Notes: generated from the sequence alone by a model not told the origin. 64,000 nt of DNA from Patescibacteria group bacterium (GCA_043816305.1 JBDRHZ010000012.1:55701-119700), one strand, 5' to 3'; shown: positions 1,800-21,970, counted from the stretch's first letter. A program made the numbers and translations.

Positions 1800-2210
1800 A
1801 TGGAAAGAAAAGTAAAAGTATATACTGACGGCGGGGCAAGGGGAAACCCAGGGCCTGCTGCAGCTGGAGTTGTGATATTTGATGAAGAGGGTAGACTACT
1901 AGCCATTGACGCGAAATATCTCGGTGAGACGACAAACAATCAAGCTGAATATCAAGCACTAGAACTTGCGCTCGAACTTCTGCAAAAGAAGGACATTTCT
2001 CGAGATATCACTTGTTACTTGGACAGCGAGCTTATCGTTAAACAATTAAACGGGGAGTACAAAGTCAAAAATTCTGACATTGCTATAGTAAAGAAAAGAA
2101 TTGACTCATTGTCTGAGTTTTTTGAGAACATAGAGTTCATTCATATCAGACGTGAGGAAAATAAGTTTGCAGATAAACTCGTAAATGTTATATTGGATGC
2201 AAGGGAGTAG
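1800..2210 (+). CDS. rnhA: Ribonuclease HI
   Basis: ORF 1737..2210. Motifs VKVYTDGGARGNPGPAAAGVV...TNNQAEYQALELAL match the RNase H catalytic core (DGG...E...D). The likely start is the internal Met at 1800 (MERKVKVYTDGG). Confidence 0.85.
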   Translation: MERKVKVYTDGGARGNPGPAAAGVVIFDEEGRLLAIDAKYLGETTNNQAEYQALELALELLQKKDISRDITCYLDSELIVKQLNGEYKVKNSDIAIVKKRIDSLSEFFENIEFIHIRREENKFADKLVNVILDARE

Positions 2211-7654: not shown

Positions 7655-8410
7655 ATGAGCATACGAATAAAACGGTTCTACGATAAAATACCAAACTATG
7701 ACAAAAGCAAAATCGACAACGACTTTGATAATATAGATGATCTGCTAATAAGACTTGAAGGTTCTATAGATAATAAAGATATTAAAATAGTACACCAACC
7801 TATTGAAGACGCTTTTAAATCAAGGCTAACAATTATTTTATATCAAAATAACTTAAGAGCTTTCTATTTACTTACCGGAATAGTTACAGAGTTAAACGCA
7901 GATAATTTACCAGCCGCTTTGCCATTAATTAGAGCATTTTACGAGTTGATGATACAACTAGGTTATTTGTGCAGTCAGATCTTAAATCATAACGATTTGA
8001 ATTACTTGCTTTCAGAACTATTTCATAAGGTATTTTTAGGAAATCGAAATGAGGGTGCTGGCGTACTCGCTTTAGGCAAAGTAGAAACTATCAGTATTAT
8101 GACGATGCTTAGCCATGCTGAGAAAGTATTTAATTCTATTGATCCTGAAGGTACTAAAGATAAGCAAATACTAACAAACTACTATGCAGATCTATCAAAC
8201 AAGTGTCATCCCAACTTTAATAGCAATATGTTCTTTACCAGTCTTGATGAAAAAGGAGAACTATTAGGATTAGATGATATTGGAGAAAATATGAGCTCTG
8301 TCAAAGCACTTGTTTATCATGAATATATGAGTCCTCTTCTGAGTGCAATAGATCATTACAAGTTGTATATGGACAAAATAAATGCTGATCCAAAAGTCGT
8401 AACTACTTAA
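7655..8410 (+). CDS. Hypothetical protein (islet cargo)
   Basis: 251-aa ORF between repeats A and B. No recognisable catalytic motif. Confidence 0.45.
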   Translation: MSIRIKRFYDKIPNYDKSKIDNDFDNIDDLLIRLEGSIDNKDIKIVHQPIEDAFKSRLTIILYQNNLRAFYLLTGIVTELNADNLPAALPLIRAFYELMIQLGYLCSQILNHNDLNYLLSELFHKVFLGNRNEGAGVLALGKVETISIMTMLSHAEKVFNSIDPEGTKDKQILTNYYADLSNKCHPNFNSNMFFTSLDEKGELLGLDDIGENMSSVKALVYHEYMSPLLSAIDHYKLYMDKINADPKVVTT

Positions 8411-9401
8411 CGATCTGATAAATAACTCTAAAGATTGCAGTTGATACAAAGCTGAAGTATTTCGAATATTCATCATCACCAATACCATCAGTTATATCGT
8501 GTGATGTGAGATTTCGCAGAGCATAACTCACCCAAAAACTCATCACCATTCCAGAGGTATTTGAATTCTCCGATACAAACCCAGCGACATCCTTCATAGA
8601 AGATACATTATTTGTTTTGTCAAAAAAGTCTGTTTGTATATTGGCGTTTTTTGGTAGAAAATTTTTACCAAAAGTACTACTCATCTTATTGTTAAAGGCT
8701 TCACCTATATTATTTATTTCTGGAAATAATATCCTACAAAGACTCTCAAAAATCAGACTTCCTTCTCTCAAATGTGATTGGAGGAGATTTGCAGAACTTC
8801 CTGTATTAATACACAGTTGTGAGATAACTGAGTACTCTGAGTATTGAGAGAGCCAATACGCAAGTGTAATTATTAAACTAACATTTTTATTATTCCACGA
8901 AGTAGTAATTTTTTCTACGATATTTTTCCAGTAATCTACATAATCCATTCCTAAAGAAATGCCAGTATTATCTTCAAATTTTTTGAATAACTCTTTCACA
9001 GGCTCTTTCAGTTTCTTGTATAGTCTAGTTGCAGTTCCAGAATCAGATTGTAAAGTTAGTAATTTATATGCAGGATTATTTTTGAAAGTTGCTTTATCTT
9101 TACGTCTGTCTTCTTCAATTGCCATCGATAAAAATAGCATCGCTTTATGAAAACTCCCAATATCTCCTTGAAGCCATGCCATTAAGTAATATGGTGTACC
9201 TTTATGTGCGAGATTATAGGTGGCAATGTCAAATTTCCGTACCTTATTGAGAATATCTAAATATCCAATATACCTAGCATAACTCTGATCTTTGACAGGG
9301 ATTGAATTACCAGGTCCAAACTTTTCAAAGAACTTATCCCACTTCTGTGGATCAGATATACCTTTTAGAGCTTGAAGCTCTTTTTGTAATTGGTCATTCA
9401 T
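8403..9401 (-). CDS. Hypothetical protein (islet cargo)
   Basis: 332-aa ORF convergent with 7655..8410, 3' ends overlapping by 8 nt. No recognisable motif. Confidence 0.45.
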   Translation of the reverse strand: MNDQLQKELQALKGISDPQKWDKFFEKFGPGNSIPVKDQSYARYIGYLDILNKVRKFDIATYNLAHKGTPYYLMAWLQGDIGSFHKAMLFLSMAIEEDRRKDKATFKNNPAYKLLTLQSDSGTATRLYKKLKEPVKELFKKFEDNTGISLGMDYVDYWKNIVEKITTSWNNKNVSLIITLAYWLSQYSEYSVISQLCINTGSSANLLQSHLREGSLIFESLCRILFPEINNIGEAFNNKMSSTFGKNFLPKNANIQTDFFDKTNNVSSMKDVAGFVSENSNTSGMVMSFWVSYALRNLTSHDITDGIGDDEYSKYFSFVSTAIFRVIYQIVK

Positions 9402-9445
9402 AAACAGAATTATACTATATCAATATAAATTATTAACATCTATCC

Positions 9446-9703
9446 ATGACTCTAACTCCTTTCGAATGGCCCCAATATCATCTAGACCGAGTACGTAAAG
9501 TTTTTGAGCCTCGCTACGGTGAAAAACTCTCCGATGAAAGAGTAATAAATATTGCCAACAACCTCTATGGATACGCAGTTGTATGCTATGACTCATGGAA
9601 AAAGAGAATTAAAAAAGAAGAGGATGAGATTCGAACCAGGAAAAGAAATGGTGGACAAGAATTTCCACATACAGAAGAAGGTCAGGATAAATTACGAAAT
9701 TAA
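9446..9703 (+). CDS. Small protein, paralogue of the element gene 37362..37565
   Basis: Shares RKVFEPRY..KL.EE.V..IA.NL..YA.VC with the 67-aa protein inside the large element. Confidence 0.5.
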   Translation: MTLTPFEWPQYHLDRVRKVFEPRYGEKLSDERVINIANNLYGYAVVCYDSWKKRIKKEEDEIRTRKRNGGQEFPHTEEGQDKLRN

Positions 9704-9756
9704 TAAAAGGTTCGAGTCGAACCGAAGAAGCTTGCTAATTAGGGGAAATTTCGAGC

Positions 9757-9797
9757 CAGTACCAACTGGCGGGGTGCGTGGGACAAGGCTCGAACTT
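9757..9797. repeat. Hybrid direct repeat B (att-like junction)
   Basis: The left 16 bp (9757..9772, CAGTACCAACTGGCGG) is identical to 40051..40066 next to tRNA-Ser. The right 34 bp (9764..9797) is identical to repeat A. Confidence 0.8.
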
Positions 9798-10045
9798 TTT
9801 TCCTTACTCACCCTCTAACAAGGATATATATTCCCGAACTTTCTTTCAAGTTTAATTTACCTGCTAATTTAGATTTAAATTGTTAAAATAACCATTATGA
9901 TCTACAAAAAAGGAAAGGGTGCGAGAGTTTACTACAACACCGGTTTTAGGAATTATGGATGTCTGATATCATTACTTATTCTTCCTATCCAGCTTATCAT
10001 CCTTGTACTAATGAAAATGATAAGAAGGTCATAAGACAAACTGGG

Positions 10046-10264
10046 TTATTTCCCTTTTCTTAATTTTCGAACCCCTTTAAATTTGCTGTTTCTTTGAGAC
10101 TTATTATCAAGGAACTTCTTAGTCTCAGTGTTGATTTTGACATATAACTTTGTCTTGGGGTTTTTTACCTGAACTCGCTTCCGAACAGCTCCTTTTCTTT
10201 GATTATCACCATACGGTTTATTTTTTGCCATTATTAGTTTTGTAAAAATTAAATAATTGTTCAA
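10046..10264 (-). CDS. Small lysine/arginine-rich basic protein
   Basis: 72-aa ORF immediately downstream of the Avs-like gene. The probable start is the internal Met (MAKNKPYG...) at 10231. Confidence 0.35.
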   Translation of the reverse strand: MNNYLIFTKLIMAKNKPYGDNQRKGAVRKRVQVKNPKTKLYVKINTETKKFLDNKSQRNSKFKGVRKLRKGK

Positions 10265-10281
10265 GATATTTAATCAGTCTT

Positions 10282-13200
10282 TTATTCTTCGTCTAATATT
10301 TGATCTTTTTCTCTTCGTATTTCTCTAAGTACATGTTGATGAATATCAGTGAAAAATCTTTTCGCTGGAGATTCAGGGGCAATATTTGCAAGGACTTCGG
10401 CAGATTTATCACGCATTTCGATATCCTGAGGAAATGGTTCTCCTACCGTTCCTGATCTCCCACCTGAGATCAACGTGCTTCCTAAAGAGGATCTTACTGA
10501 GTTAAAACACTCTGACCCCTGAAAATAAGCACGTTCTAATATTTTTATGATAAATCCAATATTATTCCAAATAAAACTTGCTGGTGCTTCTGATATAAGT
10601 GAAGCTGCATATTTAATTTTGTCAGCTGAACCAGATTCTATCCATTCATTTAGAATTTTCATGACAGTGCCATTAAACTCGTTTGCTACCATAGAAAACA
10701 AATCCTTCCCGAAATGGATATGCTCCCATTTTTTTAGATCAGAGTAAACCCAGTCCCTTAGTTGTCTCAATATATCCTCATACTCTTTAGTTTCATGAAA
10801 TCTAAACTTTGTTTCTTTCTCATGCCTGAAAGGCAAAGGATCGTATTCTTTATTTGTTGATTTCTCAGTTTTATCAATACGTTTTTTCAAGAATTCAATA
10901 GTTTCAGTTGGATATTGAAAGGAGATCTCATTAAGATAATTTTCAATATAGTACCCATCAATAGAAGGGCAATCAAGAAGCATATTATTAATTTTTTCAA
11001 TATCCTTTACTGATAAGTCGTGTATTTTGAAAGCCCCATGTTGGTTAAACTCACTTAAAACCTCTTCTGCTATTTGAGATGATCCTTCAAACTTTATATT
11101 CAATGCCAATTGCAGTGCAATTAGTTTATCTACTTCAGCTAACCTGCTAAGTGAATGAACGCTAGATAATCGAACTGTTTTATCTGGAGAATTTAGTAAC
11201 TCAGTAAGCACTGATTTATTTTTTTCTTCAGCAATCTCGTTGCCAAACAGTCCCCAACTGAAAGAAGATGCTAGCTGTCTTTGTAGCGCTATGTTTCCTA
11301 ACTTGAGAGTTTTTCGTGCTATTTCTAAGGCTTTTTCTTTCTCAAACTTTTGTAGATAAGTAATTACTGTACTAAGGAAATTGCTGAGAACAGAGGTAGG
11401 GTTCTCCATAATAAAGTCCCCTAGCTCTCCGCCAAATTGTGGAGATAATCTAATAAGGCTACTCATGAAATGAGCCTGAATACCGTTCTGTTTGGAGATC
11501 GTAATAATTTGGGATACCCTTTCTTCAAGAAAAAGAATAAGATCAGAGTTCGAATATTTTTTTAGAGTTTTCTTAGCTGTAAGATCTATCCATTCACTCC
11601 ATCGTTCTTCTCTTTCCTTATAGGAGAGTTGCTCTTCCTCAAATGATCTGCCCCATCCATCCATTAAAGCTCTAACTATGTCTAATCCAAGGCTTTGAGG
11701 TATAGCATCTAGTACTTGTTGTGAGTGTTCCTTAGCCTTTGTTTTACCGTGCTTTGCCTGCCAAACTACAGCTTGTATTATTTCAACTAGTAAGATTGGA
11801 TCAAGGTTATTTTTTTCAACTATTTGTTTAAGTTTTATTAGAACTTCAATTATCCTTTTCTCCCATTCTTTAATTAGTTTTCCTCCTACTACAGCACCAA
11901 ACATGCCTCTTGGATAGCTTGTAGCTGCTGTAATTGTTTGAATTGCTCGACTGGCATAATGTAAATTATCTCCAATAAGGTAGTGAAATGCTAAATCAAT
12001 TGCTTTTTCCCTAAATAGATCTACCTGCGTAGGGGAAACAAAATATGGTCTCATTGTAAACTTGTTGTCATGAAACTCAGTAATATCAGTTTCCGTTGCT
12101 AAAACATGATCGATTACTTCAAATGCGGGAAGTCCGTATTCAGGATCTTTAGTCCATTCAATTGCCAGATTTAATATTCGCTCTGTGTATATCAGGGGTT
12201 TTCTTGGTTTTATTTCTATTAAGTCACTTAGTATCCTCATAGGATGCTCCGGATATTGATTTTGTCGCCTCTTATCAGTTTGGGCAAGTTTCCATAATAA
12301 ATTACATGCATCAATTAAATAATCAAGATTGTAAGCTATATCTTGTAATATTTCGGGAAGCTTATGTGTTACATAGTCGTAGGTAACATTATCTGACCAT
12401 CTAGGATCTAAACCAGACTTTCTTGTAGGATTATCTATAGCAAATCTTACTAGAGTAAGCATCCTTTCGGGTTGGAAATAGGCAATATCTTTAATCATTT
12501 CAAGTATCTCTTTTCTCTGCCAAATACCAGCATTTTTAAACTCATCCATAACTATCAACCACACTTCATCAAGAAGAGTAGTTCTCAATCCCTTCCCATT
12601 CTCATAGACCAGACGCCAGTCGAGTTGACTTAAATTCTTAAGTAAATTACTGGCTAATTTCCCTTTTGCAATTTTATACACCCTGTCAGCAAAACCTGTG
12701 GATTTTTGTTCATTTGAATTGAAGCAGGCTACTTCTCTAATATAATCAGCTAGAAGATCAGGGACTATTCTAAGCTGTTGGCCACGTCTTAAGAGGATAC
12801 CAGCATCTTCGAGTAATCTGATCTTACTATCAATAAGAACTTTGTCTTCTCTAAGTAATTCTTTCGTAATTTCAGAGAAACTTTCATCAGATTGTATTAC
12901 TGGTTGAATTAAAGTAATTAAATCCAAGAGTTTTTTAATCTGAGGTTTTTCAGTTGCATCACCTATTTCTGCTGTGACAACATCTTTAAACCTAGATAGC
13001 ATGAGTCGCCGAAATGACTTGGAATTATTTAATGTTGCAGGTAGAATAACCTCTTTACTGAGGACTTTGGCTGCAATTACTGTAATTAACGGACAATCTT
13101 TACTTAATTTAGCTATAGTTATAGCCAAGTCCTCAGGGCCATTATTTTCTCTCAGTACCTCCTTAGCAAGTATTTCTGCTTCTTTTTTAGTTAAACTTTC

Positions 13201-14394
13201 GATGTTTAGAATAAGCTCTTCACCTGTAGCAATTGCTGATGAAAATATACTTGCCTTTATTTTTTCTAAACCATATGGTCTCGTTGATAGCATAAGCTTA
13301 CATTTCAATCCTTGATGTACTATTCCATTTATAAGTACATTCAGATCATCTCTATCATGTGCATCATCTGCTATCAAAATAGTATTTTCTGGTATTCCTT
13401 CTAAATCTTTTGGTTCTATCTCAATACCTAATGACGCAAAAAATATGTGGGAAAAATTCGACTTTACTTCAGTATCGTTTGTAATTTCTCTTAAAATTTT
13501 AGTTTTTCCTATTCCTCCACGACCACTTATAATCGCAACTATTTGATCGCTTTTTAAATATTCTTTTAGTTTGCCTATTTCTTTGGTTCTTCCGACTAAA
13601 TTCCAGTCTTGGGTAAAAAATGAATCTACTCCAGGTAAACTATTAAAGTAATTTTCTGGTTTTACCCATGGTCCAGGTTTTGGTTCCCCAAGAAAGTCCA
13701 TACGTTGATTTGGAAAATACGCATCGATTATTCTTAATCTTTCTGGTCGAGGTAATCTTCTGATATCATCAGAAATGTCAACTAAATCTCGTAAATGCCA
13801 ACTCGATCCATGTTTTGTAATAGCTTCATCTTCCTTTGCGGTTGCTTCTTTCGTCAGAAGAATGAATTGATCAGTTATTTTAAAATTGGTTTTTTCTATT
13901 ATCTTTGAGAAATCGGCTTTCTGTACTGCATTGTCGATTTTTTGTGGTCCAAACTTGCTATTATATTCAACACGTTTACATTGGAAAGTTTTAATACTTT
14001 TGTCTGGAAATTTTGCATATATATCAATCCCATACTGTTTATCTCCATGTCTACCGAAAATACGAACATCGGTGGCTTCTGGGTATAAGGATTTGATTAG
14101 GTCTAAACAAAACTTTTCGAATTTTGCTGGTGGCAGGTTATAAAGTGGTAAAGTGTCTGTTAATAGCCTTTCGGGTGACGGTACTAATCGTCCTGATAGT
14201 TTATACAATTCATCTAATGAAACCTCTGGGAATAAAGCATGGAGTTTAGCTAAGTCCACTTCCTTTGGTCGAGAAGTTCCAGCTTCCCATCTACTTATAC
14301 TTTGTTGTTTAATTTCTAACTGTCTTGCTAGATCACTTTGTCTCCAACCTTTTTTCTCTCTTAATTCTTTTATTTTTTCTGATATTCTATACAT
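10282..14394 (-). CDS. Avs-like antiviral STAND NTPase: XRE-HTH, Mrr-type PD-(D/E)xK nuclease, P-loop NTPase and long helical-repeat C-terminal domain
   Basis: 1370 aa. Residues 1-65 are an XRE HTH (KKGWRQSDLARQLEIKQQSISRWEAG). Next comes an Mrr_cat-like region (FEKFCLDLIKSLYP...GDKQYGIDIYAKF...TFQCKRV). Walker A is VAIISGRGGIGKTKI and Walker B is ILIADDAHD. About 900 aa of helical repeats follow. Confidence 0.7.
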   Translation of the reverse strand: MYRISEKIKELREKKGWRQSDLARQLEIKQQSISRWEAGTSRPKEVDLAKLHALFPEVSLDELYKLSGRLVPSPERLLTDTLPLYNLPPAKFEKFCLDLIKSLYPEATDVRIFGRHGDKQYGIDIYAKFPDKSIKTFQCKRVEYNSKFGPQKIDNAVQKADFSKIIEKTNFKITDQFILLTKEATAKEDEAITKHGSSWHLRDLVDISDDIRRLPRPERLRIIDAYFPNQRMDFLGEPKPGPWVKPENYFNSLPGVDSFFTQDWNLVGRTKEIGKLKEYLKSDQIVAIISGRGGIGKTKILREITNDTEVKSNFSHIFFASLGIEIEPKDLEGIPENTILIADDAHDRDDLNVLINGIVHQGLKCKLMLSTRPYGLEKIKASIFSSAIATGEELILNIESLTKKEAEILAKEVLRENNGPEDLAITIAKLSKDCPLITVIAAKVLSKEVILPATLNNSKSFRRLMLSRFKDVVTAEIGDATEKPQIKKLLDLITLIQPVIQSDESFSEITKELLREDKVLIDSKIRLLEDAGILLRRGQQLRIVPDLLADYIREVACFNSNEQKSTGFADRVYKIAKGKLASNLLKNLSQLDWRLVYENGKGLRTTLLDEVWLIVMDEFKNAGIWQRKEILEMIKDIAYFQPERMLTLVRFAIDNPTRKSGLDPRWSDNVTYDYVTHKLPEILQDIAYNLDYLIDACNLLWKLAQTDKRRQNQYPEHPMRILSDLIEIKPRKPLIYTERILNLAIEWTKDPEYGLPAFEVIDHVLATETDITEFHDNKFTMRPYFVSPTQVDLFREKAIDLAFHYLIGDNLHYASRAIQTITAATSYPRGMFGAVVGGKLIKEWEKRIIEVLIKLKQIVEKNNLDPILLVEIIQAVVWQAKHGKTKAKEHSQQVLDAIPQSLGLDIVRALMDGWGRSFEEEQLSYKEREERWSEWIDLTAKKTLKKYSNSDLILFLEERVSQIITISKQNGIQAHFMSSLIRLSPQFGGELGDFIMENPTSVLSNFLSTVITYLQKFEKEKALEIARKTLKLGNIALQRQLASSFSWGLFGNEIAEEKNKSVLTELLNSPDKTVRLSSVHSLSRLAEVDKLIALQLALNIKFEGSSQIAEEVLSEFNQHGAFKIHDLSVKDIEKINNMLLDCPSIDGYYIENYLNEISFQYPTETIEFLKKRIDKTEKSTNKEYDPLPFRHEKETKFRFHETKEYEDILRQLRDWVYSDLKKWEHIHFGKDLFSMVANEFNGTVMKILNEWIESGSADKIKYAASLISEAPASFIWNNIGFIIKILERAYFQGSECFNSVRSSLGSTLISGGRSGTVGEPFPQDIEMRDKSAEVLANIAPESPAKRFFTDIHQHVLREIRREKDQILDEE

Positions 14395-14398
14395 ATCT

Positions 14399-14421
14399 CA
14401 CATTATACACATTTAATGTGT
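14399..14421. promoter_or_regulatory. CACATT-repeat palindrome (ACACATT-T-AATGTGT) plus an extended -10 just upstream of the Avs-like start
   Basis: Two direct CACATT copies and one inverted copy. On the coding strand TGTATAAT lies 7 nt upstream of the ATG, suggesting a leaderless transcript. Plausible operator for the N-terminal HTH. Confidence 0.45.
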
Positions 14422-14624
14422 GCGATGCAAGGAAGGAATGAAAAAGATGGTGATTTTCAGCAATAACTCAGTAATAATTCTGGAGGATTATTAGTTTCCC
14501 AAGATAACAGAGTACCTGTCGGATATTGTCTTATAAGTGAAGCTATTAAATTCTTAGCATTATTTCGTTTCCGAACATATTCACGTTGAAATGCAGGAAC
14601 AAATAATTGATAATTTAGAATTAA

Positions 14625-15440
14625 TTATTCCTTTCTAAGTATTAGGCAATAATGATGAATAATGTTACTTACCCAAGCATGAGGATATCCATATGGTGCT
14701 AACCCCACTTTGTCTTGAGCCCAAATTTTTTCATCTTTCAATACATAAAGTGTTCCTAACCTTTTAGCTAAATCCCAAGCCAATGGATATAATTTTCCCT
14801 CTTTCTTAACATTTTTGATAATTACCGTGATATAACCCTTTGGCTTCAAAATCTTGTAAATTTGCTCATATATTTTATACAGTTCATCGAGGAACTGTTC
14901 ATAATCATCAATATTTCCCAAATCTTTTTCATCTTTTGAATATTTTACATCTAGATCATCTTTTTCTCTTTTATTCTTAAAGTCTTTAGTACTCCTGTTT
15001 AATACATTCCAGTAAGGTGGTGATGATATACAGTAGTCAATTGTTGGTAAATCCAACTCATTAATATTCATTGAATTTCCCACTATTATTTTTTGGGTTG
15101 TTCTCTTTTTTGCTATTTCTGTATATTTGGGGTTAAGCTCGATTCCAATTCCTTTTCTGTTAGTTCTATCGCAAGCGACTAAAGTACTCCCAATACCTAC
15201 AAAAGGATCAAGAACAACTTGACCTTCTTTTGTAAAGAACTTTACAAAGCTTTCAATCATGGTTGAAGAATAAGTAGCTGGATGTTCTTTTGATTTACCA
15301 TTTGTCAGATCCCTCTCTTCTTTCAAGTCTTTCGGAAGGGCATTAAAAATAAAAAAACTACTCAAAAACTTTACCCATTCAGTTCCATTCAAATCGTTAA
15401 GAGTATTAACCATTTTTCTTTTTTTTGTAATTTTGTCCAT
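14625..15440 (-). CDS. DNA methyltransferase, N6-adenine/N4-cytosine type
   Basis: EHPATY...VLDPFVGIGST...GIELNP (HPxxxP + FxGxG module) followed by SSPPYW (motif IV). 271 aa. Confidence 0.7.
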   Translation of the reverse strand: MDKITKKRKMVNTLNDLNGTEWVKFLSSFFIFNALPKDLKEERDLTNGKSKEHPATYSSTMIESFVKFFTKEGQVVLDPFVGIGSTLVACDRTNRKGIGIELNPKYTEIAKKRTTQKIIVGNSMNINELDLPTIDYCISSPPYWNVLNRSTKDFKNKREKDDLDVKYSKDEKDLGNIDDYEQFLDELYKIYEQIYKILKPKGYITVIIKNVKKEGKLYPLAWDLAKRLGTLYVLKDEKIWAQDKVGLAPYGYPHAWVSNIIHHYCLILRKE

Positions 15441-15444
15441 ATAA

Positions 15445-16488
15445 TTATATTTTTATAGATATTGAATTATTTAATAAACCCTCTTCAATTATTTTTACTG
15501 CATAATCCCTTTTAGACCTTTCAACATTTAAATCAATATTTTTGTAAGTTGTTCGTAATTCTTTCTCAAATGAAGGGTTAAGACCAACCAATTCATCTAC
15601 AGTAATAATATTCCAACTTTTATCTGAGACTAGTATTTTCCACTCTTTATCATGATTCCGTGAATTATTTATCCTATTAAATTCTTCTCGTTCCAAGAAT
15701 GGAAATAAATAAAGAAACTTCTCCTTTTGTAAATCAATATTAGATTTTAATAGTAAATATTTTGATACCAAAGCCTCTCCAACAACTATATGTCCCATTC
15801 TAAAACTTGAATCTGTGAAATTCTTATACCTTGGCCCTCTTATTTTGACCCATCCATATTTTGTTTTTATTAAATCTCTTGATTCTAAATATAATTTCCA
15901 GTCTCCATTATAAGGGGGTGCAAGAAAAAAGCGGTTAAATGTTTTAAGCATTTTATTTTCTATCTGCTTGATAATCTCTTTTAGGTCAGTGGTATTTTCA
16001 TAACATTTGACAAGTTTCTTTATGTCAGATAATTCATCCGTTATCAGGTATCTAATGCAAGGATCTTGACTATGTTCCTCAGACGCGCTTAATGCAGCAG
16101 CCATTAAATCATGTCTAATTTCATGTTGGCCTTTTTTTAAATAGTAGATTGATAGAATATTATTAAGTAAGGCACCGTAGGCATGGTGAAACCTTTGTAG
16201 TTGAGCGTTACCCCAGGATCTGGTATTTAAACAATGTGACCCTTCTATTACAATTTTTGGAGAAGAATTAACAATTTGTTGAGTAAAAGGATCAAACCAT
16301 TCCTCATCAGCGAACCATGCAAAATCATTTGAACCATAAACAACTCCATTGATTCCAAAGCTGAGTCCACCTTCAGCCCAAATATCTTGATCATGATTGC
16401 TGCTACCAATATATACACGACGCTTGAGGGTATCAGTATTCCCTATACTTGAGAGCTCTCTTTTTATAATATCATCGGTTTTTGACAT
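15445..16488 (-). CDS. Hypothetical protein inside the R-M operon (candidate restriction-endonuclease subunit)
   Basis: 347-aa ORF, translationally coupled to both neighbours. No assignable motif. Confidence 0.35.
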   Translation of the reverse strand: MSKTDDIIKRELSSIGNTDTLKRRVYIGSSNHDQDIWAEGGLSFGINGVVYGSNDFAWFADEEWFDPFTQQIVNSSPKIVIEGSHCLNTRSWGNAQLQRFHHAYGALLNNILSIYYLKKGQHEIRHDLMAAALSASEEHSQDPCIRYLITDELSDIKKLVKCYENTTDLKEIIKQIENKMLKTFNRFFLAPPYNGDWKLYLESRDLIKTKYGWVKIRGPRYKNFTDSSFRMGHIVVGEALVSKYLLLKSNIDLQKEKFLYLFPFLEREEFNRINNSRNHDKEWKILVSDKSWNIITVDELVGLNPSFEKELRTTYKNIDLNVERSKRDYAVKIIEEGLLNNSISIKI

Positions 16489-17584
16489 AGTGTAAAATGT
16501 AATTAATTAATCCATCGTAATTAATATCTTTTAAATAATTTATTAAACCGATGCTATCTAATGGGAATTTCAATTCTTTTGACATTTTTTCTAAACTATC
16601 TGTTGATAAATTTGCTAAAAGATAAAATTTAATATAAGTATCTAACCATTTATTATATCTTGATTCCTTAGCATAATCTGTTATTTGAGTCGAATTCTTA
16701 TCGATAATCGTCATATCACCTTCTGCATTAAATGTGATTAGTCCTGAATATGAACTTGCGTCCTTTTTGAAAGGAATCACTTCGAAAGCTTTATGAAAGA
16801 TCTGTTTCGATATATATTTTTCAATCTGAGGTGCTGAGGATTGTAGTGTTTTAACTTCAAATACAGCATTTTTCCAATCTTGAAATGATTTTGTATTATT
16901 TTTGACTTTATCTAAACCGAACGTTGTTATTGTCATTAATTCGATTAATGAATATCCTCTAAAACCTACCCCATACTTTGTTAAAGCATTAGATAATTCA
17001 TCAACTCTATATATTGATGCATCTGGGGTACCGACTCCATAATAGAAGGGTATCTGTGTATCTGTAAAAAACCCGAATTTTGAAAAATAACTAGAGATAA
17101 TAAATTCAAAGAACGATTCGAATTCGGATACCTTTGTTAATCCCTTCCTAATTGGAATTATTATGTAGTCATTAGGATTATAATTATTTTGGATCAACTC
17201 CTTGCTTATTTCTTTTAACCTCTCAAGGAACAAGCTATATTTTTCATATTCAATCGGTAATAAGTATTTATAACCCTTAAGGATATATGGTTTTTCGAGT
17301 ACATTTATTCTTGGTGTACATGAAAACGACAGATCAGAAATTGACATCAACCCTTCTTGAATATTGTATTCCTCTGCTTGATTAAATATTCTATAATAAT
17401 CCCTTTTAAGAAAAAAACGACACTCAGGTTCAGAAATATCTAAGTATCCATGAGCAGATAAAACGGCATATAAAAATGCTTCCCTCGGACTCAATTCAAT
17501 AGTATCTCCGACACAAGGGTTTTTTACTCGTTTTAAACCAAGAGATTTCGTTAATGTATTTAAAACAAAAGATTTATTTATCAT
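16472..17584 (-). CDS. Hypothetical protein inside the R-M operon (candidate restriction-endonuclease subunit)
   Basis: 370-aa ORF. Possible PD...(D/E)xK-like elements (GVGTPD ... FEVK), but the spacing is atypical. Confidence 0.35.
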   Translation of the reverse strand: MINKSFVLNTLTKSLGLKRVKNPCVGDTIELSPREAFLYAVLSAHGYLDISEPECRFFLKRDYYRIFNQAEEYNIQEGLMSISDLSFSCTPRINVLEKPYILKGYKYLLPIEYEKYSLFLERLKEISKELIQNNYNPNDYIIIPIRKGLTKVSEFESFFEFIISSYFSKFGFFTDTQIPFYYGVGTPDASIYRVDELSNALTKYGVGFRGYSLIELMTITTFGLDKVKNNTKSFQDWKNAVFEVKTLQSSAPQIEKYISKQIFHKAFEVIPFKKDASSYSGLITFNAEGDMTIIDKNSTQITDYAKESRYNKWLDTYIKFYLLANLSTDSLEKMSKELKFPLDSIGLINYLKDINYDGLINYILHYVKNR

Positions 17585-19178
17585 TTAAATTCATTATTCG
17601 GTCAATTAAATATATGCTTATATTCTTTAAACTCTCATAATCATCTGTTTTGAAAACGTAATCTATAGCTTTTTCCAAAACTTCATCATAAATATTTGTG
17701 ATATTTAATGTACTTCCATGAGCTTTGTATTTATCAATTATTCCATCGATTTCTGATAAATTGAATCCTAAGGATAATTGGCTATTATTCATTTTGATAC
17801 TTTTTTTAAACAACATGTATAGGTCAGTTTTCGGTGATCTTTTTGACCAATTTTTATTAAAAGAATTTCCTAGTGGATCGTGAATATTTAAACCACAAAA
17901 TGAAAAACCAGCACCCTTAATCGCTCTTATTATTGCACTCCATACTTTAAAATCCTTATTGTGAAATGTTACCATCAAAAATTTCTCATTTTTTAATACT
18001 CGAAACGTTTCAGAAAAAACTTGAGATAATAAATCTTCATAATTTTTAATATTTTTTTTCTTCGATCTGTTAATGATTATTTCATCATCATGTTTATACT
18101 CATTCTTAAACCAAAAATTCCAAACCATACTCAATTCGTCGTATTGGATACTATCTCCGTATGGTGGGTCGGTAAAAATGAAGTCTATTGAATCGTTTTT
18201 AATAATATTAGAAACATCTGTTGATGATTGATTAAATATCTCACAACTGTAGTCAGAATTTTTTATTCTTTCATTGGCAATTTTTTTCCCTTCTAATAGG
18301 TTTTCTACTCTCTGTGCAAACCTAAACCAAACGTTCTCCTCAATCCAGTCATCAGGAACCCAATAATTGTTTACTGAAAGAGGACGGACATTTGCACCTT
18401 TTAGTTTACTTGCATGAAGTAAAGTATCAGAGAAAGATAGCAGAAGAAGTTCTTTAACATTATTATCTTTAATATCTTGTATAACACTTAACAGTGTAGA
18501 TAATGCATGAAGATTTCTGTTCGTAAACAACTTATCAACTGAGGTTATACCTTTATATGTAATTCTATCTTTATCAAATTTTTCAGGAAACTTATTTTGG
18601 GGATACCAATTTGCAATCTTGCTTTTTTCAAGTTTGTGTAAGTTCTGTAAATCTTTCTCAGACAATAAAAGCTTTTTCATTGTTTTTCTCTTTCCACAAT
18701 TTGGACAATATGCTTTTGCAGAAATGGATTTAAACTTTGGGCCTCTTTCGAAATATTCGCCTAAATAATTTGATCCACAGAATTCACATTTTTTAGATAA
18801 TATATAGAGCTTATTTAGTTTGTTTTTTAATTTCACAGATATTTTCTCAAACTCAATTTCGATCTCTTCTGTAATATTATGGTTCAAAATAGTCATACGA
18901 CTTACAAATGTAGACACTGGGTTTAAATCAATTAGAATAGAATTTCTATCTAGAACAAGAGATTCAACACCGGTAACACCACTTCCAGAAAATGGATCAA
19001 AAACGACATCTCCTTTATTTGTAAATTCTTTTATATATGAATTTACATAATACCAAGGTTTTCTTGCCCAATATTTATGTATTTTATACATTTTTATAAT
19101 TTTATCTTGCTTAGGAACAACAATGCTGTCCCTAATTTTGTTTAGTCTTTCTTTAGTATCAACCATATTTTTCATCAA
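17574..19178 (-). CDS. DNA methyltransferase, N6-adenine/N4-cytosine type, with a Cys4 zinc ribbon
   Basis: HKYWARKP...VVFDPFSGSGVTG (motif I) near the N-terminus and FIFTDPPYGD (motif IV) about 270 aa later. CEFCGS...CPNCGKR zinc ribbon. 534 aa. Confidence 0.75.
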   Translation of the reverse strand: MMKNMVDTKERLNKIRDSIVVPKQDKIIKMYKIHKYWARKPWYYVNSYIKEFTNKGDVVFDPFSGSGVTGVESLVLDRNSILIDLNPVSTFVSRMTILNHNITEEIEIEFEKISVKLKNKLNKLYILSKKCEFCGSNYLGEYFERGPKFKSISAKAYCPNCGKRKTMKKLLLSEKDLQNLHKLEKSKIANWYPQNKFPEKFDKDRITYKGITSVDKLFTNRNLHALSTLLSVIQDIKDNNVKELLLLSFSDTLLHASKLKGANVRPLSVNNYWVPDDWIEENVWFRFAQRVENLLEGKKIANERIKNSDYSCEIFNQSSTDVSNIIKNDSIDFIFTDPPYGDSIQYDELSMVWNFWFKNEYKHDDEIIINRSKKKNIKNYEDLLSQVFSETFRVLKNEKFLMVTFHNKDFKVWSAIIRAIKGAGFSFCGLNIHDPLGNSFNKNWSKRSPKTDLYMLFKKSIKMNNSQLSLGFNLSEIDGIIDKYKAHGSTLNITNIYDEVLEKAIDYVFKTDDYESLKNISIYLIDRIMNLNDK

Positions 19179-19374
19179 TTAATTCGTCTAAAGAGATGTT
19201 TAAAGCCTTAGCAATTTTATAAATGGTTTTTATTGTAGGATTTTTCACTTGCCCATTTTCAATCTTCATAAGTGTAGCATAAGGAATATTTGCTTTTCGA
19301 GCTAACTCTTCTTGAGTTAAATCCTTATCATTTCGTAGCTTTTTTATCTTTTCTCCAAGAGATATTTGATTCAT
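19159..19374 (-). CDS. XRE-family HTH controller (C-protein-like) at the head of the R-M operon
   Basis: 71 aa, DLTQEELARKANIPYATLMKIENGQ. Overlaps the start of the large MTase. Confidence 0.7.
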   Translation of the reverse strand: MNQISLGEKIKKLRNDKDLTQEELARKANIPYATLMKIENGQVKNPTIKTIYKIAKALNISLDELIDEKYG

Positions 19375-19502
19375 TTAGTTATTCTTATACAAGTAATATT
19401 CGGTTGGTAATATCATACCGCATAACTCTATAAAAGGAAACCAAAAGCCTTATTCTTTATCAAACTTTCTTATGGCGTATGAATAAAGAAAGTTTGTTAA
19501 AA

Positions 19503-19530
19503 AGGCGGAAGCTTTTGACCTCCGCCTTAA
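19503..19530. terminator. Hairpin terminator downstream of the DUF2958 gene
   Basis: AAGGCGGA-loop-TCCGCCTT, followed on the minus strand by a T-run. Confidence 0.45.
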
Positions 19531-19535
19531 TGCTT

Positions 19536-19829
19536 TCAGTTCATCAATTCTTTCAATGTTTTAGGTTTGAAATACATATCTCTTTCAATTGGTAATCCTA
19601 AAGCACCTTTTACACTTAGAAGCTCAGAAAGTGAGAAGTAGCCTAGCTCTTTTTCAAAGCCATCTACCAGACCAAAAAAGGTATCTTCTCCGTCAAACTC
19701 AGTAGCGTACCAAGTCCAGTTACTATCAGGAGTAAAAAACTTAACAACTGCAACCGCTTCAAGCCCTTTATCTTCCTGTGAGTAAAGTTTGGGCAACTTC
19801 TCCAGAATTTCTTTTGTAATCAATTTCAT
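19536..19829 (-). CDS. DUF2958-like small protein
   Basis: 97 aa. MKLITKEILEKLPKLY...KFFTP..NWTWYATEFDG...FFGLV.G.E.ELGYFSLSEL matches my memory of the DUF2958 consensus. Confidence 0.45.
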   Translation of the reverse strand: MKLITKEILEKLPKLYSQEDKGLEAVAVVKFFTPDSNWTWYATEFDGEDTFFGLVDGFEKELGYFSLSELLSVKGALGLPIERDMYFKPKTLKELMN

Positions 19830-20233
19830 TTTTTTTATGTAATAACTTAAATGTTTTGTTCCTTAACTGTCTGCCTCGTTAGCTCAGCTCAACGGTTTGT
19901 AGTTTTCAGATAAGGCTATTCAATTGTTAAAGAGCTATTTTCTTTCAAGTCAGGAATGTTTTCCCTTTCTAAGAGGAAAAAAGCGAGCCAAAACGACCGT
20001 AGGGAGTGACGGCAGTATAAAAAGACTGATTTGACAAGGAGGAATTTGAGTGTAGCGAAAAGCAAATCCTTGCAAACCCAAAGGGTAGCAAGCGTATGCT
20101 ATAGCAGAAGCGAAGCTATCAAAGGATTTTTATGCTAGACTTTTACCAGAAAGGGAAAATAATAATGTGTTTGTTGCGAAGCAAGCAACTTCAATTATGT
20201 TGAGGGAAAGCGGGGATTACTTTCCCTCTCCAA

Positions 20234-20351
20234 TTTAGACCTCAGAAAAAAGAACGTTTATGAGGTCATTTAAAATCTCGATTTTATCGAGAAGTTTGTG
20301 CATTTGAGCTTCGATTTCTGTTCTTAGAAGCTCTTTTGCTTGATACTCCAT
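20234..20351 (-). CDS. Possible 39-aa small ORF with a strong Shine-Dalgarno
   Basis: AAGGAGGAAATATGGAG on the minus strand. Product is MEYQAKELLRTEIEAQMHKLLDKIEILNDLINVLFSEV. It lies inside a 600-bp noncoding gap. Confidence 0.25.
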
Positions 20352-20425
20352 ATTTCCTCCTTAACAATTTAGATACATCCTAATTGTAGCGACCAAAGAT
20401 TAAATAATCCTTAAATTATTATGAA

Positions 20426-20974
20426 TTATTTCTTAATTTCTACCTTATCGAGTAAAACAAAATATCGTAGTCTCGATAACATGAATTTACAGGTATAAAG
20501 AATTGTTTTATTGTTAAAATCGGGATTATTTTTATCCTCTGTTATTTCATCAATTTGAAATTTATATTTTTCTCCATTCCAAATAATATAAACATTATCT
20601 CCTTTATTTAGCTTATCAACATGATAAAGTGTCTGCTTCATTTTTTGATCAGGCGACAATGTTGACCAGCCGAAACGATGGATTGCAATCAAATCAGGAT
20701 TATTGCTTTCATCTAGTCTTTGAATCCACCCTCCATTATCAAGATATTTCCGATCAGTACCTATCTCCATATCAACTCCGATAGAAGGGATAATCAGCCT
20801 GTTTTGCGATAAATCCTCTTGTTCCTCAATTGCCCTGATGATTTTCGCTGTATCAGGTTTATCTAATCTGTATTCAATCTCAGGCGAAAATACATGATAC
20901 AGGACATATAAACCTGCAAGAATAGAAATTAATCCTATGATAAGGCTAATTTGTTTAATAATTGTTTTGACCAT
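20426..20974 (-). CDS. Sortase-family transpeptidase
   Basis: N-terminal TM helix, then LIAIHRFGW (catalytic His) and TILYTCKF (TLxTC Cys motif). 182 aa. Confidence 0.65.
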   Translation of the reverse strand: MVKTIIKQISLIIGLISILAGLYVLYHVFSPEIEYRLDKPDTAKIIRAIEEQEDLSQNRLIIPSIGVDMEIGTDRKYLDNGGWIQRLDESNNPDLIAIHRFGWSTLSPDQKMKQTLYHVDKLNKGDNVYIIWNGEKYKFQIDEITEDKNNPDFNNKTILYTCKFMLSRLRYFVLLDKVEIKK

Positions 20975-21834: not shown

Positions 21835-21933
21835 ATATTCTATTATTCTATACTCTCTTACTGTTCCGCCCGCCGATTCAATCCATCGGATTAGATTAAC
21901 AAGTTACACACACAGTTAATCGTAGTCGAGGGA

Positions 21934-21970
21934 GTGATTGGGTGGAGTCCGAAGGAGTCCACCCAATCAC
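21934..21970. promoter_or_regulatory. Inverted repeat GTGATTGGGTG...CACCCAATCAC (candidate oriT or terminator)
   Basis: 11-bp arms flank GAGTCC-GAAG-GAGTCC, overlapping the last codons of the coupling-protein gene. Confidence 0.4.

What the first reader, a model, noticed from the sequence alone, without database searches (positions are those of the whole stretch)
10046..14424. Avs-like STAND NTPase fused N-terminally to an XRE HTH and an Mrr-type nuclease, with its own palindromic operator and an apparently leaderless promoter
An Mrr_cat-like effector, a P-loop with Walker A and B motifs, and a roughly 900-aa helical C-terminus match the antiviral STAND (Avs) architecture. An XRE-type HTH at the extreme N-terminus is not part of the canonical description. 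Immediately upstream of the start codon sits ACACATT-T-AATGTGT, preceded by a third CACATT, plus TGTATAAT 7 nt before the ATG. This suggests leaderless expression and possible autoregulation through the protein's own HTH. A 60-aa Lys/Arg-rich ORF lies directly downstream and may be co-expressed.
Basis: partly seen in the sequence, partly recalled or inferred. Interest (0 to 1): 0.75.

Follow-up and report, generated by a model that had tools for sequence, protein, structure and literature searches.

The report
Self-repressing HTH–Mrr antiviral STAND sensor
A 1370-residue, NLR-like immune-sensor candidate carries its own DNA-binding repressor domain, and its palindromic operator sits in its own promoter. 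This pairing is kept across many bacterial phyla, so the likely suicide-type defence protein probably sets its own dose.

Summary
It lies on the minus strand. The CDS 10282..14394 encodes 1370 aa in this order: XRE helix-turn-helix, Mrr-type nuclease, STAND P-loop NOD, winged helix, and a ~810-aa HEAT solenoid.

Upstream lies TTGCAT-17 nt-TATAAT. The perfect palindrome ACACATTAAATGTGT fills the spacer and overlaps the -10. The -10 ends 7 nt before the ATG.

Alone, the palindrome is weak evidence (about 0.17 such repeats expected per intergenic region). Comparison is decisive:
- The core AC.CA-N5-TG.GT is about 700-fold enriched just upstream of 79 homologues from many phyla.
- In an independent metagenome set it precedes 18 of 19 HTH-bearing homologues and 0 of 54 HTH-less ones.
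- A -10 hexamer peaks 12-13 nt before the start codon in 24 of 79 loci, which is a leaderless layout.

Siblings swap the N-terminus (Mrr alone, or DUF4062) on the same NOD and sensor. Neighbours are variable defence and mobile-element genes. No partner gene is conserved.

The 61-aa basic ORF downstream is a real, separate, promiscuous gene (PADLOC PDC-S38), not a partner. The third half-site is not conserved.

Verdict: a single-gene Avs-like sensor with built-in negative autoregulation, a new variant of a known kind. Defence activity and DNA binding remain untested.

The parts
10282..14394 (-). CDS of the 1370-aa HTH-Mrr-STAND-HEAT protein (stop codon 10282-10284)
   Evidence: ORF list. Identical to an NCBI protein from a Patescibacteria MAG. 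92 full-length homologues found.
14197..14391 (-). XRE/Cro-C1 helix-turn-helix domain (aa 2-66). Recognition helix is KQQSISRWE.
   Evidence: Pfam HTH_3, E 9e-13. Five helices with pLDDT 92-97. Profile matches 434 repressor, P22 c2 and HipB. Q30, Q31, S34, W36 and E37 are invariant or nearly so.
13843..14136 (-). Mrr-type PD-(D/E)xK nuclease domain (aa 87-184), the predicted effector
   Evidence: PADLOC LmuA-like, E 2e-7. Pfam Mrr_cat in 9 of 12 homologues, best E 4e-10. E93, D124, Q138 and K140 are at least 90% conserved. Alpha-beta-beta-beta-alpha-beta core in the model.
12895..13611 (-). STAND nucleotide-binding oligomerisation module (aa 262-500). Walker A at 13501-13524, Walker B at 13363-13380, sensor-1 R372, DCPL motif aa 433-436.
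   Evidence: Pfam NB-ARC E 1.5e-8, plus weak nSTAND3 and nSTAND5 hits. nSTAND_NTPase5 in 10 of 12 homologues. Invariant residues. Foldseek top hits are EfAvs5 9jap and Avs3 8dgc, followed by plant NLRs.
12724..12885 (-). Winged-helix domain of the STAND module (aa ~504-557)
   Evidence: Helix-helix-strand-strand element in model mde54020077e2. R537, G538, R542, P545 and D550 are invariant or nearly so.
10285..12717 (-). HEAT-type alpha-solenoid (aa ~560-1370), the predicted sensor
   Evidence: AlphaFold2 pLDDT 91.4. Foldseek matches CAND1, SF3B1 and karyopherins, with no Avs sensor in the top 50. Profile hits to AP-1 beta and alphaRep HEAT repeats. 649 cluster representatives share it at E<=1e-30.
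14407..14421 (.). Operator: perfect palindrome ACACATT-A-AATGTGT. The family core is AC.CA-N5-TG.GT. It lies in the promoter spacer and overlaps the first base of the -10.
   Evidence: Sequence. Unique in the window. Conserved in orthologues. About 700-fold enriched upstream of homologues. Present in 18 of 19 HTH+ loci against 0 of 54 HTH- loci. After de-duplication, 14 of 15 against 0 of 41, p=2.6e-12.
14402..14407 (-). -10 hexamer TATAAT, 7 nt upstream of the ATG (leaderless layout)
   Evidence: Sequence. TAnnnT start offsets peak at -12/-13 in 24 of 79 homologue loci. No SD-like motif in any of the 32 loci with such a hexamer 5-10 nt before the start.
14425..14430 (-). -35-like hexamer TTGCAT, 17 nt upstream of the -10
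   Evidence: Sequence. TTGCAT, TTGTAT or TTGACx occupies the same position in orthologues. It falls below the threshold of the generic scan.
14399..14404 (-). Third half-site AATGTG (CACATT on the + strand), overlapping the -10. Probably fortuitous.
   Evidence: Present in the window. Absent at the same place in L001, L002 and L004.
10046..10231 (-). Separate 61-aa Lys/Arg-rich gene of the PADLOC PDC-S38 family, 50 nt downstream of the STAND stop codon. Not part of the system.
   Evidence: PADLOC PDC-S38, E 3e-23. 285 clusters in many phyla. Absent from 82 STAND homologue loci. Found in other defence and mobile-element contexts.

Best explanation
This is a single-gene, NLR-like (antiviral-STAND-type) defence sensor that represses its own transcription.

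Shown by sequence, structure prediction and comparison:
- The protein order is XRE HTH, Mrr-type nuclease, STAND NTPase with winged helix, then a large HEAT solenoid.
- A 15-bp palindrome sits between the -35 and -10 of its own promoter.
- That palindrome co-occurs strictly with the HTH across the family.
- The -10 lies 6-8 nt from the start codon.

Inferred:
1. Two HTH domains bind the palindrome and occlude RNA polymerase. This gives negative autoregulation, holding a potentially lethal nuclease at a low, constant dose. It would also allow a burst of expression followed by shut-off after horizontal transfer, as with controller (C) proteins of restriction-modification systems.
2. The mRNA is leaderless and starts at the A of the ATG.
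3. The HEAT solenoid binds a phage-derived protein. NTP-dependent oligomerisation through the NOD then brings Mrr domains together and activates DNA cleavage, giving abortive infection or destruction of phage DNA, as shown for the nuclease-bearing Avs3 and Avs4.
4. Oligomerisation may pull the protein off its operator and de-repress the gene. This step is speculative.
For: Architecture and residues:
- Domain and residue calls.
- Confident models.
- The NOD is closest to EfAvs5, Avs3 and plant NLRs.
- The sensor is a HEAT solenoid.

Operator:
- The same promoter and operator layout is found in the 80%- and 48%-identity orthologues. Half-sites are invariant and the centre varies.
- The strict core occurs at 6.3 per kb in the -100..+15 region of 79 loci, against 0.009 per kb elsewhere in the same loci.
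- A position weight matrix at a false-positive rate of 1e-4 per position finds at least one site in 60 of 79 loci. It finds at least two sites in 30 of 79.
- An independent metagenome set gives 18 of 19 HTH+ loci against 0 of 54 HTH- loci. After de-duplication this is 14 of 15 against 0 of 41, p=2.6e-12.
- The four HTH-less look-ups also lack the operator.
- The recognition helix QQ[TSA][VI]SRWE is nearly invariant.

Leaderless layout: the -10 offset peaks at -12/-13, and no SD-like motif accompanies it.

Defence role:
- Effectors are swapped on one chassis: HTH-Mrr, Mrr alone or DUF4062.
- There is no conserved neighbour. Flanks hold integrases, SoFic, TIR effectors, ThsB, a CBASS cyclase and R-M genes.
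- Homologues lie next to CBASS and AbiU2.
- The window gene sits beside DNA methyltransferases, a relaxase and a coupling-protein-like ATPase.
Against: - Nothing here was tested experimentally. DNA binding, the transcription start, nuclease activity, the trigger and phage protection are all inferred.
- The protein matches none of PADLOC's Avs models.
- Its own Pfam nSTAND5 score (17.8 bits) and nSTAND3 score (19.4 bits) are below the curated cut-offs (34 and 27.2 bits).
- Its own sequence gives no Mrr_cat hit at E<=0.01.
- The sensor resembles generic eukaryotic HEAT proteins, not any solved Avs sensor.
- The weight matrix was trained on part of the loci it was scored on.
- Loci are phylogenetically related, so counts are not fully independent, although de-duplicated counts were used.
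- About a quarter of the HTH+ loci found in genomes lack a site that passes the matrix threshold. Several of these show one-mismatch or different-spacing variants.
- How a 1370-aa STAND protein would dimerise on a palindrome is unknown.
- SD motifs are absent genome-wide here, so lack of an SD does not itself argue for a leaderless mRNA.
Confidence: 0.68

Rival explanations
1. It is primarily a signal-responsive transcription factor of the STAND class (MalT-, AfsR- or GutR-like). The HTH would be the output domain. The Mrr-like fold would be a degenerate or accessory DNA-binding module. The solenoid would sense a metabolite or host protein.
For: HTH + STAND + helical repeats is the architecture of known STAND regulators (general knowledge; Lee et al. 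2026, PMC13581612, note regulator clades interspersed with defence clades). A specific operator exists.
Against: - The nuclease catalytic residues E93, D124, Q138 and K140 are at least 90% conserved.
- The operator is found only at the gene's own promoter (8 hits in 887 kb elsewhere). In the window there is one further core hit, consistent with chance.
- Sibling proteins keep the NOD and sensor but drop the HTH or replace HTH-Mrr with DUF4062.
- No conserved neighbouring target gene exists.
Confidence: 0.07
2. The HTH is mainly part of the effector or sensor logic rather than a regulator. It may tether the Mrr nuclease to DNA, as the N-terminal DNA-binding domain does in the type IV enzyme Mrr. 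Alternatively it may act as an 'integrated decoy' that baits phage anti-repressors or proteases that attack cI-like repressors. Promoter binding would then be secondary.
For: HTH immediately followed by Mrr_cat mirrors the DNA-binding-domain-plus-Mrr_cat layout of Mrr (general knowledge). The HTH is closest to phage 434 and P22 repressors and to HipB. Plant NLRs with integrated DNA-binding decoys are a precedent (general knowledge).
Against: - The operator sits at a precise, conserved position over the -35/-10 spacer, and in many loci also over the start codon. That placement is what a repressor needs. A tether or decoy does not require it.
- HTH-less siblings with Mrr alone are common, so the nuclease does not need the HTH.
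- The two roles are not mutually exclusive.
Confidence: 0.12
3. It is an addiction or stabilisation module of mobile elements: a fused toxin-antitoxin-like protein with a HipB/antitoxin-type autorepressor HTH. It would not be an anti-phage sensor.
For: The closest solved sequence relatives of the HTH are HipB antitoxins. NCBIfam gives weak hits to antitoxin HTH families. Flanks hold integrases, resolvases and a relaxase.
Against: - A 900-aa sensor solenoid with a STAND switch and swappable effectors is the hallmark of pattern-recognition receptors, not of toxin-antitoxin systems.
- Neighbours include many bona fide defence genes.
Confidence: 0.06
4. The palindrome and the -10 spacing are chance features of an AT-rich intergenic region.
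For: 0.17 comparable perfect inverted repeats are expected per 230-nt intergenic region of this window. Promoter-like hexamers are no more frequent than in shuffles.
Against: About 700-fold enrichment across phyla. Strict co-occurrence with the HTH. Sharp positional peak of the -10.
Confidence: 0.01

Closest known systems
Antiviral STAND NTPases (Avs/AVAST) with nuclease effectors (Avs3, Avs4), and bNACHT25 with an Mrr-like REase effector
   Same: Tripartite layout: N-terminal effector, STAND NOD with winged helix, and a large C-terminal helical sensor. Single-gene organisation in defence islands. Effector swapping on one chassis. The best structural matches of the N-terminal half are EfAvs5 and Avs3. 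An Mrr-like effector is reported for bNACHT25.
   Different: An extra XRE HTH precedes the effector, with a cognate self-operator. There is no match to PADLOC Avs models. It is not a NACHT (Walker B DDAHD-R instead of D[GAS]hDE). The sensor is a HEAT solenoid with no solved Avs sensor among the top 50 fold matches. Function is untested.
Controller (C) proteins of restriction-modification systems (e.g. C.PvuII, C.BclI) and other autoregulated XRE repressors (lambda/434 cI, HipB, CapH)
   Same: Small Cro/C1-type HTH binding a palindrome that overlaps its own promoter. Control of a dangerous nuclease or toxin. Leaderless transcripts are known for C.PvuII and lambda cI from PRM (general knowledge). 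Profile hits to C.BclI, 434 repressor, HipB and PADLOC capH.
   Different: Here the HTH is covalently fused to the nuclease and sensor it controls, instead of being a separate protein. The operator sequence (TACACAT-N3-ATGTGTA) is family-specific.
STAND-class transcription regulators (MalT, AfsR/SARP-STAND, GutR)
   Same: A DNA-binding domain, a STAND NTPase and helical repeats in one polypeptide. Ligand-controlled oligomerisation.
   Different: Those carry LuxR- or SARP/OmpR-type DNA-binding domains and no nuclease, and they activate regulons. Here the HTH is XRE-type, a catalytically intact Mrr domain is present, and only the self-promoter carries the site.
Pfam nSTAND_NTPase5 (PF25199), 'Novel STAND NTPase 5'
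   Same: 10 of 12 close family members match at E down to 4e-11. Most of the 92 homologues carry the precomputed hit.
   Different: The window protein itself scores 17.8 bits against a 34-bit cut-off. The Pfam entry describes only the NTPase domain, not the HTH or operator.
E. coli Mrr type IV restriction enzyme
   Same: An N-terminal DNA-binding domain followed by an Mrr_cat PD-(D/E)xK domain with a D...QxK motif. D124-X13-Q138-x-K140 here. The comparison with Mrr's motif is from memory.
   Different: Mrr has a winged-helix domain that reads modified DNA. It has no STAND switch or sensor.

Membership tests
STAND NTPase superfamily | P-loop NTPase with Walker A GxxxxGK[ST], Walker B hhhhDD/E and a sensor-1 arginine | tested here: met
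   G291-RGGIGKT298, L339-IADD344 and R372. G294, G296, K297, D344 and R372 are invariant in 53 homologues.
STAND NTPase superfamily | Helical domain and winged-helix domain directly after the NTPase core, followed by a repeat-type C-terminal domain | tested here: met
   AlphaFold2 models. Foldseek top hits are EfAvs5, Avs3, ZAR1, NRC2 and NRC4. HEAT solenoid.
Avs (antiviral STAND) families | Effector-NOD-sensor architecture in a single gene, with variable N-terminal effectors across the family | tested here: met
   HTH-Mrr, Mrr-only and DUF4062 variants occur on the same NOD and sensor. No conserved neighbour.
Avs (antiviral STAND) families | Sequence membership in a named Avs type (PADLOC v2 Avs/AVAST models) | tested here: not met
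   None of the 18 PADLOC families hit at E<=0.01 is an Avs model. Assignment to the 589 clades or Avs7-21 of Lee et al. 2026 could not be checked, because no supplementary tables are held.
Avs (antiviral STAND) families | Location in defence islands | tested here: met
   The window gene sits between a PDC-S38 gene and a cluster with two DNA methyltransferases, on an element with a relaxase and a coupling-protein-like ATPase. Homologues lie beside CBASS and AbiU2. Flanks include SoFic, TIR, ThsB, a CBASS cyclase, PD-Lambda-4 and integrases. No statistical enrichment test against a genome background was run.
Avs (antiviral STAND) families | Protects against phage and is triggered by direct binding of a conserved phage protein | not testable with these tools
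   Needs phage-challenge assays and trigger co-expression screens.
NACHT clade | D[GAS]hDE signature after Walker B (as quoted from the bNACHT paper) | tested here: not met
   The sequence is D344-A-H-D-R348. There is no Pfam NACHT hit.
Pfam nSTAND_NTPase5 (PF25199) | Score at or above the curated gathering threshold (34 bits) | tested here: inconclusive
   The window protein scores 17.8 bits. 10 of 12 aligned relatives match at E<=1e-3, best 3.8e-11.
Mrr_cat (PF04471) PD-(D/E)xK nucleases | Mrr_cat profile match plus conserved acidic and lysine catalytic residues on an alpha-beta-beta-beta-alpha-beta core | tested here: met
   There is no direct Pfam hit for the window protein at E<=0.01. However, 9 of 12 relatives match, best 4.4e-10. 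PADLOC LmuA-like, E 2e-7, over aa 87-184. E93, D124, Q138 and K140 are at least 90% conserved. The fold is present in the model. Catalysis is not testable here.
XRE/Cro-C1 HTH (HTH_3) | Five-helix Cro/C1 fold and a profile match above threshold | tested here: met
   48.5 bits against a 23-bit cut-off. Five helices at pLDDT 92-97. PDB profile hits to 434, P22 and HipB.
Autoregulated repressor (cI / C-protein / HipB type) | Cognate palindromic operator overlapping the core promoter of its own gene | tested here: met
   Position and conservation. Presence only where the HTH is present.
Autoregulated repressor (cI / C-protein / HipB type) | Demonstrated binding and repression | not testable with these tools
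   Needs EMSA or footprinting and reporter assays.
Leaderless mRNA | Transcription start at the A of the start codon | tested here: inconclusive
   The -10 ends 7 nt before the ATG. The offset peaks at -12/-13 in 24 of 79 homologues. No SD-like motif accompanies it. The genome lacks SD motifs everywhere and no 5'-end data exist.
PADLOC PDC-S38 (small downstream ORF) | Profile match. For being part of this system: conserved adjacency to the STAND gene. | tested here: not met
   The profile match is met (E 3.4e-23). Adjacency is not met: no copy in 82 homologue loci. The ORF is found beside unrelated systems.

The most novel reading that the evidence does not exclude
The fused HTH makes this immune receptor a self-contained feedback circuit. 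At rest it sits on its own operator and limits its dose. When a phage trigger drives oligomerisation, the repressor is pulled off or sequestered. The leaderless gene is then de-repressed, amplifying the response in the infected cell. A more radical variant is that the cI-like HTH is an integrated decoy that detects phage anti-repressors. Either way, transcriptional control and pattern recognition would be coupled in a single polypeptide, which I found in no paper of the library searched.
Probability: 0.2. Interest if true: 0.8.

Novelty: new variant of a known kind. Interest (0 to 1): 0.62.

Why it matters
Known regulators of costly or suicidal defence systems (CapH/CapP, CapW/BrxR, C-proteins) are separate genes. 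Here the repressor is built into the sensor-effector itself, and the matching operator travels with it across Patescibacteria, Actinomycetota, Proteobacteria and other lineages.

This suggests a general solution to two problems:
- how an NLR-like killer protein avoids autoimmunity;
- how it survives horizontal transfer.

It also gives a simple, testable handle: one 15-bp site and one 65-aa domain. With it, dose control and possible activation-coupled feedback in bacterial NLR-type immunity can be studied.

Finally, it defines an uncharacterised family. Its sensor is shared by about 650 clusters at 50% identity, and it is a HEAT-type solenoid with an unknown trigger. Cultivable hosts (Pseudomonas, Comamonas, Ralstonia, Bradyrhizobium) carry orthologues suitable for experiments.

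Tried and rejected
- Small ORF as a co-functional partner: rejected. tblastn found no copy in 82 homologue loci. The closest orthologue has a convergent gene immediately downstream instead.
- Third CACATT half-site as a second operator: rejected, because it is not conserved. True second operators exist in other clades, but 27-30 bp away.
- 'TGTATAAT' as an extended -10: rejected, because the TG is in the wrong register.
- P0017 as an HTH-less control: it turned out to be a mis-called start. The real ORF has an HTH.
- The search for related loci with the 53-sequence alignment failed because no stretch was conserved enough. It was repeated with 12 sequences.
- A Pfam scan of alignment A1 exceeded the size limit. 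One DNA reference was in the wrong frame.
- The generic promoter scan did not list the promoter, because its -35 matches only 3 of 6 positions.
- Rfam found no RNA family in 9300-14800.
- There is no homologue of the STAND protein in 50,697 phage records. Plasmid records give only generic annotations.
- Literature searches for nSTAND5, PDC-S38, STAND+Mrr+HTH and STAND+XRE+autoregulation found no description of this arrangement. The 2026 STAND catalogue does not mention HTH or autoregulation in its main text, and its tables are not held.
- Recognition-helix and operator covariation: only one informative case. L083 has QRTISRWE with ACCGTA-N6-TACGGT, which is too little to claim.


Full report
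**1. What is there**

The feature lies on the minus strand. ORF 10282..14394(-) encodes 1370 aa. It is identical to an NCBI protein annotated only as 'helix-turn-helix domain-containing protein' from a Patescibacteria-group MAG. An in-frame TGA two codons upstream, and the lack of any later start before helix 1, fix the ATG at 14394.

- Pfam gives HTH_3 at aa 8-63 (E 9e-13) and an NB-ARC-type P-loop at aa 271-321. It also gives weak nSTAND3, nSTAND5 and HEAT hits.
- PADLOC matches aa 87-184 to an LmuA nuclease model (E 2e-7) but matches no Avs model.
- In 53 full-length homologues the residues E93, D124, Q138 and K140 are at least 90% conserved. These form the Mrr-type PD-(D/E)xK set.
- G294, G296 and K297 (Walker A), D344 (Walker B) and R372 are invariant in the same alignment.
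- Mrr_cat and nSTAND_NTPase5 are hit by 9 and 10 of 12 relatives respectively.

**2. Structure**

AlphaFold2 on aa 1-520 gives mean pLDDT 88.6. The model shows a five-helix HTH, an alpha-beta-beta-beta-alpha-beta nuclease core and a P-loop NOD. Its best PDB matches are EfAvs5 (9jap) and Avs3 (8dgc). Plant NLR resistosomes and generic AAA+ proteins follow.

The model of aa 461-1370 has pLDDT 91.4. It is a winged helix followed by an all-alpha solenoid. That solenoid resembles CAND1, SF3B1 and karyopherins. It is therefore HEAT-type, and no solved Avs sensor is among the top 50 matches (sequence-profile support).

**3. Promoter and operator in the window**

On the minus strand the sequence reads TTGCAT (14430-14425), a 17-nt spacer, TATAAT (14407-14402), 7 nt, then ATG. 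The perfect palindrome ACACATT-A-AATGTGT (14407-14421) fills the spacer and shares its last T with the -10. It is unique in the window.

By itself it is only suggestive. About 0.17 comparable inverted repeats are expected per intergenic region of this size.

**4. Comparative test of the operator**

The 80%-identity orthologue (Dojkabacteria) and the 48%-identity one have the same layout:
- window: TTGCAT cgcACACAttaaaTGTGTATAAT gtgagat ATG
- L001: TTGCAT tatACACAccaaaTGTGTATGAT agattt ATG
- L002: TTGTAT tatACACAgaaaaTGTGTACAAT acaaat ATG

The half-sites are invariant and the centre varies. The annotated start in L002 is 72 nt too far upstream.

A genome scan returned 80 loci from Patescibacteria, Actinomycetota, Alpha-, Beta- and Gammaproteobacteria and other lineages. 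Results across 79 non-identical upstream regions were as follows.
- The strict core AC.CA-N5-TG.GT occurs 57 times in 9.0 kb of the -100..+15 sequence. It occurs 8 times in 887 kb elsewhere in the same loci, an enrichment of about 700-fold.
- A weight matrix (consensus cgTACACATttaaATGTGTAcg) at a false-positive rate of 1e-4 per position finds at least one site in 60 of 79 loci. It finds at least two sites in 30 of 79.
- Paired sites are usually 27-30 bp apart, and the second often covers the start codon.
- The recognition helix QQ[TSA][VI]SRWE is almost invariant.

**5. Independent control**

A metagenome scan was seeded with HTH-less relatives. It gave 19 HTH-bearing loci and 54 HTH-less loci with enough upstream sequence. 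Of the HTH-less loci, 31 were Mrr-NOD and 23 had another N-terminus.

The exact core lies just upstream of the HTH in 18 of the 19 HTH-bearing loci. It is found in none of the 54 HTH-less loci. After collapsing near-duplicates the counts are 14 of 15 against 0 of 41, Fisher p=2.6e-12. The single exception carries a one-mismatch site. Four further HTH-less look-ups also lack the operator. The operator is thus tied to the HTH, which is what autoregulation predicts.

**6. Leaderless layout**

TAnnnT hexamers start at -12 or -13 relative to the ATG in 24 of 79 loci, against a background of 1-2 per offset. Fourteen of them have TTG 16-18 nt further upstream. None of the 32 loci with a hexamer ending 5-10 nt before the start has an SD-like motif.

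The window genome shows no SD-like motif before any of 44 large ORFs. Absence of an SD is therefore uninformative here. The inference rests on the conserved spacing. No 5'-end data exist.

**7. Defence role**

- The sensor is shared by 649 cluster representatives at E<=1e-30. It begins at about residue 460 (HTH-Mrr-NOD), about 385 (Mrr-NOD) or about 270.
- Two members checked that lack Mrr carry DUF4062 at the N-terminus.
- The immediate neighbours of 74 loci share no family. They include integrases, resolvases, SoFic, TIR effectors, ThsB, a CBASS cyclase, PD-Lambda-4 and R-M subunits.
- Individual homologues sit beside CBASS and AbiU2.
- In the window the gene is flanked by two DNA methyltransferases, a relaxase and a coupling-protein-like ATPase.

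This is the pattern of a single-gene, effector-swapping, NLR-like defence protein. No protection assay was possible.

**8. The small ORF**

ORF 10046..10231(-) encodes 61 aa with 22 Lys/Arg. It matches PADLOC PDC-S38 at E 3e-23. The family has 285 clusters across distant phyla. It is absent from all 82 STAND homologue loci.

It occurs instead in other contexts:
- inside a type I R-M operon on a mobile element;
- upstream of a PycTM gene;
- near a Dam methylase;
- in Staphylococcus, Streptococcus and Microcystis phages.

It is an independent gene that may be co-transcribed here, since no terminator intervenes. It is not part of the system.

**9. Comparison with known systems and novelty**

Functionally the protein looks like an Avs-type sensor with an Mrr effector, plus a C-protein/cI/HipB-type autorepressor fused in cis. 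It is not a NACHT and matches none of PADLOC's Avs models. Public records annotate it only generically.

Searches of the paper library found no description of an HTH-bearing, self-operator-controlled STAND defence protein. The 2026 catalogue of 589 STAND clades probably contains the family, but its tables were not available.

I rate it a new variant of a known kind. The domain architecture is ordinary for the field. The cross-phylum, HTH-dependent self-operator is the new and testable part.

Noticed in passing
window 10046-10231 (-); L088-L092: The 61-aa Lys/Arg-rich ORF belongs to a highly conserved small-protein family (57-61 aa, 60-80% identity across Firmicutes, Bacteroidota, CPR and Marinimicrobia; PADLOC PDC-S38). 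It sits next to unrelated defence systems: inside a type I R-M operon, upstream of PycTM, and near Dam plus an S24 peptidase. It also occurs in Staphylococcus, Streptococcus and Microcystis phages. In phage phi575 the match is antisense to the annotated Gp10 CDS. Its function is unknown.
   Followed up: partly
L002 6001-6075; L083 2776-3001: Start-codon mis-annotations in public homologues. P0003 is called 24 codons too long; its true start is ATGGAGAAATTT at 6073, directly after the operator and -10. P0017 is called 75 codons too short, which hides its HTH.
   Followed up: yes
L083 2740-2778: One homologue has an altered recognition helix (QRTISRWE). Upstream it carries a different palindrome, ACCGTA-N6-TACGGT, followed by TATGGT 6 nt before the ATG. 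This may be protein-operator co-variation, but it is a single case.
   Followed up: partly
L018, L026, L029, L042, L059, L070, L078 and others, upstream 70 nt: Many proteobacterial homologues have two operators 27-30 bp apart. The promoter-proximal one overlaps the -10. The second covers the start codon, whose ATG is the ATG of the right half-site. This suggests cooperative binding by two dimers.
   Followed up: partly
L132 1018-1800; L165 1021-1800: Relatives sharing the NOD and HEAT sensor carry an N-terminal DUF4062 domain in place of HTH-Mrr. This shows effector swapping within the family.
   Followed up: partly
window 14625-24681 (-): Upstream neighbours are an N6/N4 DNA methyltransferase (14625-15440), two unannotatable ORFs (15445-16488 and 16472-17584) and a second methyltransferase (17574-19178). 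Next come a Replic_Relax relaxase-like gene (20935-21834) and a 904-aa HerA/TrwB-like P-loop ATPase (21967-24681). This looks like an R-M cluster on an integrated mobile element in a Patescibacteria genome.
   Followed up: partly
window, whole (44 ORFs of at least 150 aa): No Shine-Dalgarno-like tetramer lies in -20..-4 of any large ORF. At least two neighbouring genes (7655 + and 8403-9401 -) also have TATAAT 6-7 nt before their ATG. Translation initiation in this organism appears SD-independent.
   Followed up: partly
window 9709-9723 (-): A terminator-like hairpin, GGTTCGACTCGAACC followed by a T-run, lies about 320 nt downstream of the small ORF. No ORF on that strand lies in between. It could end a STAND plus small-ORF transcript. 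The 320-nt gap is unexplained, and Rfam finds nothing there.
   Followed up: partly
window 2104-2118: A second match to the operator core (ACTCATTGTCTGAGT) lies inside an RNase H-like gene. This is consistent with chance (0.48 expected per window).
   Followed up: yes
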